DNA of 64,000 nt from Escherichia coli (GTDB taxonomy: Bacteria; Pseudomonadota; Gammaproteobacteria; Enterobacterales; Enterobacteriaceae), in NCBI RefSeq assembly GCF_003334405.1, contig NZ_QOWM01000002.1; one strand, written 5' to 3'. Position 1 is the stretch's first letter, and the number at the start of each line of letters is the position of its first letter. Position numbers: made by a program. Shown here piece after piece: positions 43,101-46,100 of the stretch.

Positions 43101-46100
43101 CGGGATCGAACGGCGTAACGTCGGTATCTTGAGTTGAAATAACGCGAACGTCGCTGACCGGAACCCCCACGGTTTCTGCCACCATTTGCGAGAAGACGGT
43201 GTCGGCACCCTGACCGATTTCCGTCGCGCCGCTTTGCACGTTGATGGTTCCATCCTGATTCATCAGAAGGCGCGCGCCTGCTATTTCTACGCCGACAGGC
43301 CAGGTGTTAGAGGTGTAGCTAAAACAGGCGACGCCAACGCCGCGGCGCAAATTGCCTTGCTGGTTCTGGCATTCTGCACGGCGTTTTTCCCATTCAAAGA
43401 TTTTCCGGCCTTTTTCAAGACACTCCGGCAACCCTGCGCTGTAAATACGTTTGCCCGTGAGCGGATTAGCATCTCCTTCGCGGGCGGCGTTGCGTAAACG
43501 AATTTCAACAGGATCAATACCTAACGCTGTCGCGGCGTCATCAAGCATAGACTCAACGGCAAATACGACTTGTGGCGCGCCATAACCACGCATCGCACCA
43601 GCCGAGGGGAGGTTGGTATAGCAGGTCTTTGAACTGTAAGCGTAGGCACAACGAGGATAAAGGTAAGCGACTTTATTCCCCCCCGCAGAAGCGATGGAGT
43701 GCCCGTGAGATGCATAAGCGCCGGTGTTAGACAGAACATCCAGACTATAACCTTTCAATGTTCCGTCGCGGTTCACGCCCATTTGCCCGTCAATGGTAAA
43801 AGCGTGGCGGGTACGGGTTGCGAGGAAACACTCTTCACGGCTAAGGGAAACTTTCACCGGAATGCCGCCAAGCTTGCTGGTCAGGAATGCCGCCATTGGC
43901 TCTTCCAGTACATCCTGTTTATTACCAAAACCGCCACCGACAAATGGTTTGATGACTCGTACGCATGACCAGGGAATATCCAGCGCCTGACCAACCACGC
44001 GGCGAACAATGTGCGGGATCTGGGTGCTGGAAACGATGGTAATTCGCGAGTCATCCTCCATCCACGCCAGCGATGTTACGCTTTCCATGTGACAATGTTG
44101 AATAACGGGGGTCTGATAGTGCCCCTGTACCTGGTAGTCGGCGGCATCGATTGTTTGTTGGACATTACCCGTCGACATCGTGCTTTGTTTCAGTAAATTG
44201 CCACCGTTATGGATTGGTGCAGCGTCTTCTGCCAGCGCCGCTTCTGGCGTGGTGATAACGGGTAATTCTTGCCACTCAATGCTGACCAATTGCGCCGCTT
44301 TTTCTGCCGTGAGTTCATCGCGGGCCACGACGATGGCAACGGCGTCACCATGATGACGAACATGGCGAGTTAGCAGTGCGCGATCGGCGGTATCGCGCTT
44401 GTTTTCGTCAAGTGTCCAGGCATGCCCAGCTGTAGCGAATGGAATATCAGGCACATCTTCCCAGGTAAAAATCGCCAGTACGCCCGGCAAACTTCTGGCT
44501 TGTTCATCATTAATACTTACGGCATAACCATGTGCGATAGGGCTACGTACATATTTCGCATAACACATGCCCGCCATAACATAATCGTCAGTATATCGTG
44601 CCCGCCCGGTGACCTTAGCAATGGCATCGACGCGCATGCATGATTCACCCGTAGCGGTTGCTTCCCGCGCTTCCATAGAAATCCCCTCGATTTGAACATT
44701 TGGTTCTTATGGCAAAGATTTAGTCTAAGCAGGCAAGATTTACGCCAGAAACGACGATAAGCGTTAGGGGAGGTAGGAAGTGTGATGACGTTAAAAAAAC
44801 ACAGATATGATACGAAACAGGACTCTGAATAGGGGCAGTGATACGTATCAATATGAGTGGCGATAAAATCAATGTGATAAATTGGGATTATTACGCATCA
44901 GGATGGGAAATAGGGTAAAAAGTCAGGAAGTTCGATACCTCTACAGCGAATATTTTGCTGATGATACTTCCCTTTGCCAAATGAAATTAACCTCTTTCTC
45001 TATTACCACGTTTTTCCAGAAGCAAGAGATTGGGTATCAAGAGGCTGGCTGCTATGATAAGGCGTCTTGTTTTTTAAGCGAGGAAAGATTTTGAGTGCGG
45101 GACGCCTGAATAAAAAATCTCTGGGTATCGTGATGTTGTTATCGGTTGGACTGCTTTTGGCGGGCTGTTCGGGTAGCAAATCATCCGATACAGGAACGTA
45201 TTCCGGCTCCGTTTACACCGTGAAACGGGGGGATACGCTATATCGTATTTCGCGCACCACGGGAACCAGCGTAAAAGAACTGGCGCGACTGAACGGCATT
45301 TCCCCCCCTTACACCATTGAAGTTGGTCAGAAACTAAAACTGGGTGGGGCGAAAAGTAGCAGTATTACACGTAAATCAACCGCCAAATCAACGACCAAAA
45401 CCGCATCGGTTACACCGTCATCAGCGGTACCGAAATCATCCTGGCCGCCAGTAGGGCAACGTTGTTGGTTATGGCCAACGACAGGGAAAGTTATCATGCC
45501 GTATTCGACAGCAGATGGCGGCAATAAAGGGATTGATATCTCAGCTCCACGGGGTACACCTATTTACGCCGCGGGTGCAGGAAAGGTGGTGTATGTGGGC
45601 AACCAGCTGCGTGGCTACGGTAATCTCATCATGATTAAACACAGTGAAGATTACATTACGGCTTACGCCCATAATGACACGATGCTGGTAAATAATGGGC
45701 AAAGCGTGAAGGTTGGGCAAAAAATCGCCACTATGGGGAGCACGGATGCGGCATCTGTTCGCCTGCATTTCCAGATTCGTTACCGTGCAACGGCAATTGA
45801 TCCGCTACGTTACTTGCCGCCTCAGGGCAGCAAGCCAAAATGCTGATGGCGAATTAATCAGCAGTCAGCAGCGTGGCACTTGCTAAGGAGAGCGTAAGGT
45901 TTATAATGCCTTACGCATCTCGAAGCGGGCGTAGTTCAATGGTAGAACGAGAGCTTCCCAAGCTCTATACGAGGGTTCGATTCCCTTCGCCCGCTCCAAT
46001 TTATCTTCGCCGTAATACTTCCCCATTTTGTTGTAAATAAAAAGCGTTTACGCAATGCAATCCTTTTGTAACAACCCAGGTAAAACACCTTATTTTCAAG

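What the first reader, a model, noticed from the sequence alone, without database searches (positions are those of the whole stretch)
44677..44760. Possible third sigma54-like element upstream of xdhABC
The minus strand at 44732-44748 reads CTGGCGTAAATCTTGCC (TGGCgt-N5-TTGCc), with GG and GC at canonical spacing about 85 bp upstream of the xdhA start. It is weaker than the ygfK candidate, but if real it would place three operons of the cluster under one sigma54 regulon.
Basis: inference. Interest (0 to 1): 0.3.

Follow-up and report, generated by a model that had tools for sequence, protein, structure and literature searches.

The report
Known sigma54 promoter of xdhABC

Summary
The motif CTGGCGTAAATCTTGCC lies on the minus strand at 44748..44732, as described. 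The xdhA–actS(ygeR) intergenic region is base-for-base identical to E. coli K-12 MG1655.

This 17-mer is row OS29 of Table 1 in Bonocora et al. 2015: a sigma54 ChIP-seq peak (FAT 11, PSSM 10.9), predicted start 84 nt before xdhA, flagged in EcoCyc as experimentally confirmed. Zhao et al. 2010 printed the same promoter; xdhA rose 4.9-fold on sigma54 induction and fell 2.1-fold in an rpoN deletion.

My tests agree:
- A PWM built from 130 other ChIP-bound sites ranks it first of 127,968 window positions, above the ygfK and ygeW sites.
- GG-N10-GC is invariant upstream of xdhA across about 14 genera while the spacer drifts.
- About 130–150 bp upstream lies a conserved dyad, TATCAnnnTGAG…CTCAnnnTGATA. 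Its units recur upstream of the ygeW, ygfK and ygfT sigma54 sites.
- The nearby gene ygeV encodes a PAS–AAA+–HTH_8 sigma54 activator.

Verdict: a real, conserved sigma54 promoter that is already known. The only possibly new part is the shared upstream dyad, which I infer to be the YgeV enhancer.

The parts
44732..44748 (-). Sigma54 -24/-12 promoter element CTGGCGTAAATCTTGCC, with GG at 44746-44745 and GC at 44734-44733.
   Evidence: Sequence read. Top PWM hit in the window at 15.64 bits, the 75th percentile of ChIP-bound sites. Identical to Bonocora 2015 OS29 and to Zhao 2010 Table 2. Invariant TGGCG…TTGC in alignment A1.
44721..44721 (-). Predicted transcription start, 19 nt downstream of the motif centre. 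It is not experimentally mapped in any source I could read.
   Evidence: Uses the convention of Bonocora 2015. The computation gives 84 nt to the K-12 xdhA start.
44845..44880 (-). Conserved dyad upstream activating sequence, TTATCACATTGATT-N8-ACTCATATTGATAC. The two units are centred at -152.5 and -130.5. I infer it to be the YgeV enhancer.
   Evidence: Conserved block in the 16-genus alignment A1. The half-site TCANNNTGATA occurs 13 times against 2.4 expected in the window. A PWM trained only on non-Escherichia units puts 7 of its top 8 hits in the four sigma54 intergenic regions. Positions.
44779..44799 (-). Conserved T-tract plus CATCACA element between the enhancer and the -24 box, centred near -67. 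It may be a bending or architectural site (a CRP half-site or IHF-like). This is unresolved.
   Evidence: TCACA is invariant and TTTTTAA nearly so in A1. It makes a 2-mismatch CRP-like core at 44781-44796. Similar cores sit at -67.5 and -68.5 in ygfK and ygfT.
44682..44688 (-). Shine-Dalgarno GAGGGGA serving the upstream xdhA ATG at 44676.
   Evidence: Conserved AGGGGA-N5-7-ATG in A1. PGAP starts xdhA at this ATG.
41014..44676 (-). The xdhABC operon transcribed from this promoter: xdhA 42379-44676, xdhB 41490-42368, xdhC 41014-41493.
   Evidence: ORFs. RefSeq annotation.
39196..40974 (+). ygeV, the adjacent sigma54 enhancer-binding protein and the presumed activator.
   Evidence: Pfam domains: PAS, Sigma54_activat (2.8e-70), AAA_lid_14 and HTH_8, with no receiver domain. 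It is syntenic with xdhABC in many genera.
38811..38827 (-). ygeW sigma54 site CTGGCACACTTATTGTT, from the same regulon.
   Evidence: Bonocora OS30. PWM 13.48 bits. Enhancer-like units at 39027-39041 and 39125-39138.
28995..29011 (-). ygfK sigma54 site GTGGTGCGATTGTTGCT, from the same regulon.
   Evidence: Bonocora OS31, FAT 26. PWM 14.36 bits. Composite enhancer-like palindrome at 29179-29198.
13988..14004 (+). ygfT sigma54 site TATGCCCGTTTATTGCA. It is a weak motif.
   Evidence: Bonocora OS32, FAT 3. PWM 5.25 bits. Enhancer-like unit at 13809-13823, centred at -199.

Best explanation
The element is the sigma54 (RpoN)-dependent promoter of the xanthine dehydrogenase operon xdhABC of E. coli.

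Proposed mechanism:
1. RNA polymerase carrying sigma54 sits on the -24 GG / -12 GC element (44748..44732) as a closed complex. This occupancy is shown by published ChIP.
2. The complex cannot open DNA on its own. This follows from established sigma54 biology.
3. An AAA+ enhancer-binding protein assembles on the conserved dyad TATCAnnnTGAG-N8-CTCAnnnTGATA, 130-150 bp upstream. The protein is most likely YgeV, encoded a few kb away. This step is inferred.
4. DNA looping brings the activator to the polymerase. The conserved T-tract/TCACA element near -67 may assist by bending. This step is inferred.
5. ATP hydrolysis by the activator drives open-complex formation, and transcription starts near 44721.

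The same enhancer unit lies upstream of the sigma54 promoters of ygeW, ygfK and ygfT. The purine/uric-acid catabolic cluster would therefore form one YgeV/sigma54 regulon.
For: The sequence and spacing are exact. The intergenic region is identical to K-12.

Published evidence:
- Sigma54 ChIP-seq peak on this exact 17-mer: OS29, FAT 11, PSSM 10.93, EcoCyc status 'C'.
- xdhA is 4.9-fold up on sigma54 induction and 2.1-fold down in an rpoN deletion, with the same promoter printed.
- Lamoureux 2023 cites Reitzer & Schneider 2001 for sigma54 promoters upstream of xdhABC and ygeWXY, and places these genes in a YgeV iModulon.

Tests run here:
- A PWM that leaves out the cluster's own sites gives 15.64 bits. 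That is rank 1 of 127,968 positions and the 75th percentile of bound sites.
- TGGCG[T/C]-N5-TTGC[C/T] is the best sense-strand hit 24-66 bp before xdhA in 38 of the 42 loci scanned. These cover Escherichia, Citrobacter, Kluyvera, Trabulsiella, Atlantibacter, Yokenella, Klebsiella indica, Pluralibacter, Buttiauxella, Morganella, Enterobacillus, Hafnia, Edwardsiella, Serratia (weaker) and Aeromonas. The spacer varies.
- These bases are invariant in an alignment whose mean column identity is 42%.
- The dyad enhancer is conserved and is shared with the other three sigma54 intergenic regions: 9 hits against 0.49 expected, reached in 0 of 2000 shuffles.
- YgeV is a PAS–AAA+–HTH_8 enhancer-binding protein and is syntenic with xdhABC across genera.
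- The region shows no sigma70-like promoter above chance, and none near the xdhA start.
- The intergenic region holds no NtrC-like site.
Against: - I found no mapped transcription start for xdhA in any paper I could read.
- Bonocora's RNA-seq saw no xdhA induction on sigma54 overexpression. They explain this by inactive activators.
- The in vitro RpoN gSELEX of Shimada 2021 lists the ygeV/ygeW spacer but not xdhA.
- The motif departs from consensus at -22/-21 (GT for AC) and after -12 (C for A/T).
- Window-wide, a score this high is expected 0.78 times by chance.
- No direct evidence in the papers I could reach shows that YgeV binds the dyad or activates xdhA. The only cited YgeV dependence concerns ygfT.
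Confidence: 0.88

Rival explanations
1. The element is a genuine sigma54 binding site, but it is transcriptionally silent or marginal. xdhABC would then be expressed mainly from an unrecognised sigma70-type promoter.
For: - Bonocora stress that binding sites are not necessarily promoters, and their RNA-seq showed no xdhA change.
- RpoN gSELEX did not report xdhA.
- I found no mapped start site.
Against: - Both the -24/-12 element and an upstream dyad are conserved across about 14 genera at a fixed distance from xdhA. That argues for selection on function.
- xdhA responds to sigma54 level and to rpoN deletion.
- Sigma70-like promoters in the region are not above chance. The only hit is about 230 bp upstream of the predicted start.
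- xdhABC co-varies with the other sigma54 operons of the cluster.
Confidence: 0.06
2. The promoter is sigma54-dependent, but the activator is a different enhancer-binding protein, for example NtrC under nitrogen limitation, and not YgeV.
For: - Purine catabolism is nitrogen-related.
- Shimada 2021 report an NtrC gSELEX peak at xdhB/xdhC.
- Bonocora note a low-nitrogen-induced transcript from the yqeC intragenic site in the same cluster.
Against: - The xdhA–ygeR intergenic region holds no NtrC-like TGCACC-N5-GGTGCA site.
- The conserved dyad does not resemble the NtrC consensus and is shared with the ygeW, ygfK and ygfT promoters.
- ygeV is syntenic with xdhABC across genera.
- The YgeV iModulon contains xdhABC.
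Confidence: 0.05
3. The element is a chance match to the sigma54 consensus with no biological role.
For: - A PWM score this high arises 0.78 times per shuffled window.
- The loose pattern is not enriched.
Against: - A ChIP-seq peak lies on the identical K-12 sequence.
- The key bases are invariant across genera while the spacer and flanks diverge.
- The position-specific expectation is about 0.0009.
Confidence: 0.01

Closest known systems
xdhA sigma54 promoter as catalogued for E. coli K-12 (Bonocora et al. 2015 site OS29; Zhao et al. 2010 Table 2; EcoCyc 'confirmed'; cited to Reitzer & Schneider 2001)
   Same: The 17-mer, the strand, the downstream gene and the 84-nt distance are identical, and the window's intergenic region equals K-12 exactly. 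This is the same object.
   Different: Nothing differs in the promoter itself. The papers I could read do not describe the upstream dyad or the cross-genus conservation.
glnAp2 / NtrC paradigm of enhancer-dependent sigma54 promoters
   Same: Both have a GG/GC element at -24/-12. In both, a closed complex needs an AAA+ activator bound at paired dyad sites about 100-150 bp upstream. This comparison rests on established knowledge, and the architecture matches.
   Different: The activator here has a PAS sensory domain and no receiver domain. The enhancer sequence is unrelated to the NtrC box. The physiological signal has not been identified; the cited papers point to purine/urate catabolism.
prpBCDE / PrpR and hyc-hyp / FhlA catabolic sigma54 systems of E. 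coli
   Same: Each has a locally encoded, ligand-sensing activator without a receiver domain that controls neighbouring catabolic operons. prp is also subject to catabolite control (from my own knowledge). In this cluster a Crp site is reported between ygeV and ygeW, and urate degradation is glucose-repressed.
   Different: The activator, the enhancer motif and the pathway all differ. Here at least four promoters in one 31-kb cluster share the enhancer unit.

Membership tests
Sigma54 (RpoN)-dependent promoter | GG and GC dinucleotides exactly 10 bp apart within a TGGCAC-N5-TTGCW-like element. | tested here: met
   The element is TGGCGT-N5-TTGCC at 44747..44733.
Sigma54 (RpoN)-dependent promoter | A motif score within the range of experimentally bound sites and above the genomic background. 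| tested here: met
   The score is 15.64 bits with a PWM that excludes the cluster's own sites. That is the 75th percentile of 130 ChIP sites and rank 1 of 127,968 window positions. Window-wide chance expectation is 0.78, so the score alone is not decisive.
Sigma54 (RpoN)-dependent promoter | Sense orientation at a short distance upstream of a gene, conserved in orthologous loci. | tested here: met
   The best sense-strand site lies 24-66 bp before xdhA in 38 of 42 loci from about 14 genera, with the key bases invariant.
Sigma54 (RpoN)-dependent promoter | In vivo occupancy by sigma54 holoenzyme. | not testable with these tools
   Published ChIP-seq peak OS29, FAT 11, on the identical K-12 sequence.
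Sigma54 (RpoN)-dependent promoter | rpoN-dependent transcription that starts about 12 nt downstream of the GC. | not testable with these tools
   Published microarray data give 4.9-fold up on sigma54 induction and 2.1-fold down in an rpoN deletion. I found no mapped start site.
Sigma54 (RpoN)-dependent promoter | A cognate enhancer-binding protein and an upstream activating sequence. | tested here: met
   YgeV has Sigma54_activat at 2.8e-70 plus HTH_8. A conserved dyad lies at -130/-152. Binding of YgeV to the dyad is inferred, not shown.
YgeV regulon (purine/urate catabolic cluster) | A cis element shared with other promoters of the cluster. | tested here: met
   A PWM trained on non-Escherichia xdhA enhancer units puts 7 of its top 8 window hits in the xdhA, ygfK, ygeW and ygfT intergenic regions. 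There are 9 hits against 0.49 expected in the three non-xdhA regions.
YgeV regulon (purine/urate catabolic cluster) | Co-expression with the cluster and dependence on ygeV. | not testable with these tools
   The published iModulon contains xdhABC. Only ygfT is cited as ygeV-dependent. The Iwadate & Kato 2019 paper is not held.
CRP- or IHF-assisted sigma54 promoter | A recognisable CRP (TGTGA-N6-TCACA) or IHF (WATCAANNNNTTR) site between the enhancer and the promoter. | tested here: inconclusive
   Only a conserved TCACA half plus a T-tract is present at xdhA. It makes a 2-mismatch CRP core and a poor IHF match. CRP-like cores are not enriched window-wide (33 against 29), but they sit at similar offsets in three promoters.

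The most novel reading that the evidence does not exclude
The conserved dyad TATCAnnnTGAG-N8-CTCAnnnTGATA at 44845-44880 may be the YgeV enhancer. I found no description of such an enhancer in the literature I could search. Its units also lie upstream of the sigma54 promoters of ygeW, ygfK and ygfT. A conserved element near -67 may be a CRP or IHF bending site. Together these would define one common promoter architecture that puts the whole anaerobic purine/uric-acid degradation cluster under a single ligand-sensing activator.
Probability: 0.6. Interest if true: 0.35.

Novelty: already known. Interest (0 to 1): 0.1.

Why it matters
The promoter is textbook-style and already catalogued, so confirming it adds little.

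It has some practical relevance. The xdh/yge/ygf cluster is now recognised as the gut-bacterial route for anaerobic uric-acid degradation, with links to gout and hyperuricaemia. Its regulation by YgeV and the inducing signal remain uncharacterised.

The shared enhancer motif and the conserved promoter architecture found here give concrete targets for defining the YgeV regulon and for engineering urate-degrading probiotics.

Tried and rejected
- **Loose pattern.** TGGC-N7-TTGC occurs 2 times against 3.55 expected, so it is uninformative.
- **Window-wide PWM significance by shuffling.** The result is not significant on its own: 0.78 expected.
- **A competing sigma70 promoter.** None near xdhA; the only hit (about 230 bp upstream of the predicted start) is not above chance, 1 found against 0.8 expected.
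- **An NtrC box in the intergenic region.** None is present.
- **CRP core scan.** It is not enriched window-wide and gives only a 2-mismatch hit at xdhA. I left this as an open lead.
- **An IHF reading of the CATCACA element.** The fit to WATCAANNNNTTR is poor by eye, so I do not claim it.
- **Fur-box resemblance of the AT-rich dyad.** The half-site arrangement is inverted relative to GATAAT-N-ATTATC, so I rejected it by inspection.
- **Literature search for a published YgeV binding motif.** Nothing was found. The Schaefer 2015 and ChEAP papers do not mention xdh, yge or ygf in their main text. The xdhA in the 2025 NAR paper is the Pseudomonas putida gene.
- **Papers not held in the library.** Iwadate & Kato 2019 and Reitzer & Schneider 2001 could not be read.
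- **Other cluster promoters upstream of xdhA in the fetched loci.** None was found; only guaD-ghxQ lies there, in Aeromonas.

Full report
**Observation**

The minus strand at 44748..44732 reads CTGGCGTAAATCTTGCC. This is TGGCGT-N5-TTGCC, with GG and GC at the canonical sigma54 -24/-12 spacing. It lies in the 390-bp gap between xdhA (minus strand, ORF 42379-44676) and actS/ygeR (plus strand, from 45067).

The window is E. coli. The stretch 44637-45066 is base-for-base identical to K-12 MG1655, so published K-12 data apply directly.

**It is already known**

- Bonocora et al. 2015 (PMC4591121), Table 1, row OS29, lists this exact 17-mer as a sigma54 ChIP-seq peak. The entry gives FAT 11, PSSM 10.928, downstream gene xdhA, 84 nt from predicted start to gene start, and EcoCyc status 'C', meaning experimentally confirmed.
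- My computation reproduces the 84 nt: motif centre + 19 gives window 44721, and the K-12 xdhA ATG is at window 44637.
- Zhao et al. 2010 (PMC2831329), Table 2, prints the same promoter, tttcTGGCGTAAATCTTGCCTGctta, at -110..-93. They report xdhA 4.9-fold up five minutes after sigma54 induction and 2.1-fold down in an rpoN deletion.
- Lamoureux et al. 2023 state that sigma54 promoters upstream of xdhABC and ygeWXY were identified earlier, citing Reitzer & Schneider 2001. They place these operons in a 'YgeV iModulon'.
- The same Bonocora table lists ygeW (OS30), ygfK (OS31), ygfT (OS32) and an intragenic yqeC site (IS34). The cluster therefore has four intergenic sigma54 sites plus one intragenic site, not three.

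**Independent tests**

*Motif strength.* I built a PWM from 130 Bonocora sites, leaving out the five sites of this cluster.
- The xdhA element scores 15.64 bits. That is the 75th percentile of bound sites and rank 1 of 127,968 positions in the window.
- It scores above ygfK (14.36 bits; 28995-29011, minus strand) and ygeW (13.48 bits; 38811-38827, minus strand).

*Chance expectation.*
- Sequence alone is not significant window-wide. A score this high appears 0.78 times per dinucleotide-shuffled window, and the loose pattern is not enriched.
- The expectation of such a site in sense orientation within 150 bp of a given start is about 0.0009.

*Conservation.*
- I fetched 67 xdhA loci from other genomes and scanned 42 of them. 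In 38, the best sense-strand PWM hit lies 24-66 bp before xdhA and reads TGGCG[T/C]-N5-TTGC[C/T].
- These loci cover Escherichia, Citrobacter, Kluyvera, Trabulsiella, Atlantibacter, Yokenella, Klebsiella indica, Pluralibacter, Buttiauxella, Morganella, Enterobacillus, Hafnia, Edwardsiella, Serratia (weaker) and Aeromonas.
- The five spacer bases differ freely between them.
- In a 16-genus alignment with 42% mean column identity, TGGCG and TTGC are invariant.

*Alternatives.* The scan of the region gives a single sigma70-like hit, no more than chance, about 230 bp upstream of the predicted start and none near xdhA.

**What else is there**

*A conserved dyad.* The alignment shows a second conserved block, TATCAnAATGAG-N8-CTCATnnTGATA. 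In the window it lies at 44880..44845, with units centred at -152.5 and -130.5 from the predicted start.
- The half-site TCANNNTGATA occurs 13 times in the window against 2.4 expected, and no shuffle in 100 reaches that count.
- A 14-bp PWM trained only on non-Escherichia xdhA units places 7 of its top 8 window hits in the four intergenic regions that carry sigma54 ChIP sites.
- Those hits are at xdhA; at ygfK (29179-29198, about -204); at ygeW (39027-39041 at -234, and 39125-39138 at -331); and at ygfT (13809-13823, -199).
- There are 9 hits of at least 9 bits in the three non-xdhA regions against 0.49 expected, reached in 0 of 2000 shuffles.

*The likely activator.*
- The neighbouring gene ygeV (39196-40974, plus strand) encodes PAS + Sigma54_activat (2.8e-70) + HTH_8 and has no receiver domain.
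- Its C-terminal coding end is found convergent to xdhC in Escherichia, Citrobacter, Trabulsiella, Atlantibacter, Yokenella, Buttiauxella, K. indica and Pluralibacter.
- The gene upstream of xdhA differs between genera, yet the dyad and the promoter persist. These elements therefore belong to xdhA.
- The intergenic region has no NtrC-like box.

I infer that the dyad is the YgeV enhancer. I found no paper that describes a YgeV binding motif.

*A third conserved element.* A T-tract plus CATCACA lies at 44799..44779, centred near -67.
- It fits CRP only as a half-site and fits IHF poorly.
- CRP-like cores sit at -67.5 (xdhA), -67.5 and -97.5 (ygfK; the latter is a perfect TGTGA-N6-TCACA), -68.5 (ygfT) and -77.5 (ygeW).
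- A Crp site between ygeV and ygeW, and glucose repression of urate degradation, are reported in PMC12507026.
- This is suggestive of an architectural site, but CRP-like cores are not enriched window-wide, so I leave it open.

**Mechanism**

- Shown, by published ChIP on identical sequence: sigma54 holoenzyme occupies the -24/-12 element.
- Established sigma54 biology: this closed complex needs an AAA+ activator.
- Inferred: YgeV binds the dyad at -130/-152, loops to the polymerase with help from the -67 element, and drives open-complex formation. Transcription would start near 44721. The leader would be 45 nt to the ATG at 44676, or 84 nt to the K-12-annotated ATG at 44637.

**Weak points**

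- I found no mapped start site.
- Bonocora's RNA-seq shows no xdhA response, which they attribute to inactive activators.
- xdhA is absent from the RpoN gSELEX list.
- No direct YgeV-xdhA experiment is in the papers I could read.

**Verdict**

The feature is already known, and interest is low. The only possibly new piece is the shared, conserved enhancer motif.

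Noticed in passing
window 44637-44688 (minus strand): The xdhA start codon differs between annotations. 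K-12 MG1655 starts at the ATG at 44637 (752 aa). PGAP in other E. coli starts at the ATG at 44676 (765 aa). The upstream ATG, with the Shine-Dalgarno GAGGGGA at 44682-44688, is conserved across at least 11 genera in alignment A1, which favours the longer form.
   Followed up: partly
window 44779-44799; 29074-29089; 29044-29059; 38870-38885; 13939-13954: A conserved T-tract plus CATCACA lies near -67 of the xdhA promoter. CRP-like cores sit at similar offsets in the other sigma54 promoters of the cluster. These include a perfect TGTGAatgaacTCACA at -97.5 of ygfK and a 1-mismatch core at -77.5 of ygeW. This may be a CRP or other bending site, but such cores are not enriched window-wide.
   Followed up: partly
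window 13809-13823, 29179-29198, 39027-39041, 39125-39138: Units of the xdhA upstream dyad (TATCAnnnTGAG) recur 200-330 bp upstream of the ygfT, ygfK and ygeW sigma54 sites. The ygeW and ygfT copies are an identical 15-mer, TTCTCATATTGATAT.
   Followed up: yes
window 44933-44941: Some E. coli genomes (for example NZ_CP116152.1) carry an IS1 inserted here with a 9-bp target duplication. The insertion lies upstream of the dyad, so the enhancer and promoter stay intact.
   Followed up: yes
window 47765-47778 and 47966-47995: Two overlapping sigma54-like sites (13.3 and 13.5 bits, on opposite strands) lie inside an SctQ-like type III secretion gene (47896-48843). An enhancer-like unit (TTTTCATAATGAGT, 15.96 bits) lies about 220 bp upstream, in the preceding gap. 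This is probably chance, and it was not tested for conservation.
   Followed up: partly
window about 46100-51700: The window carries intact ETT2 type III secretion genes (SctQ and SctR equivalogs). K-12 MG1655 has IS2H and the ygeK/L/N/O/P pseudogenes here. The strain is therefore not K-12, although the xdhA intergenic region is identical.
   Followed up: partly
window 37184-37196: A perfect 13-bp palindrome, TATCAAGATGATA, matches the enhancer half-site pattern on both strands. It lies inside the ygeX coding sequence, and its significance is unknown.
   Followed up: no
window 28995-29020 (minus strand): Zhao 2010 placed the ygfK promoter at TGGCAAGAGTGGTGCGAT. That is 9 bp upstream of the GTGGTGCGATTGTTGCT motif that Bonocora 2015 assigned. 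My PWM favours the Bonocora motif (14.36 bits). Two overlapping -24-like boxes are present.
   Followed up: partly
L028, L036-L045, L067 (Aeromonas loci): In Aeromonas, guaD-ghxQ lie directly upstream of xdhA in the same orientation. The N-terminus of a YgeV homologue follows xdhC on the same strand. The -24 box reads GGGCGC instead of TGGCGT.
   Followed up: no
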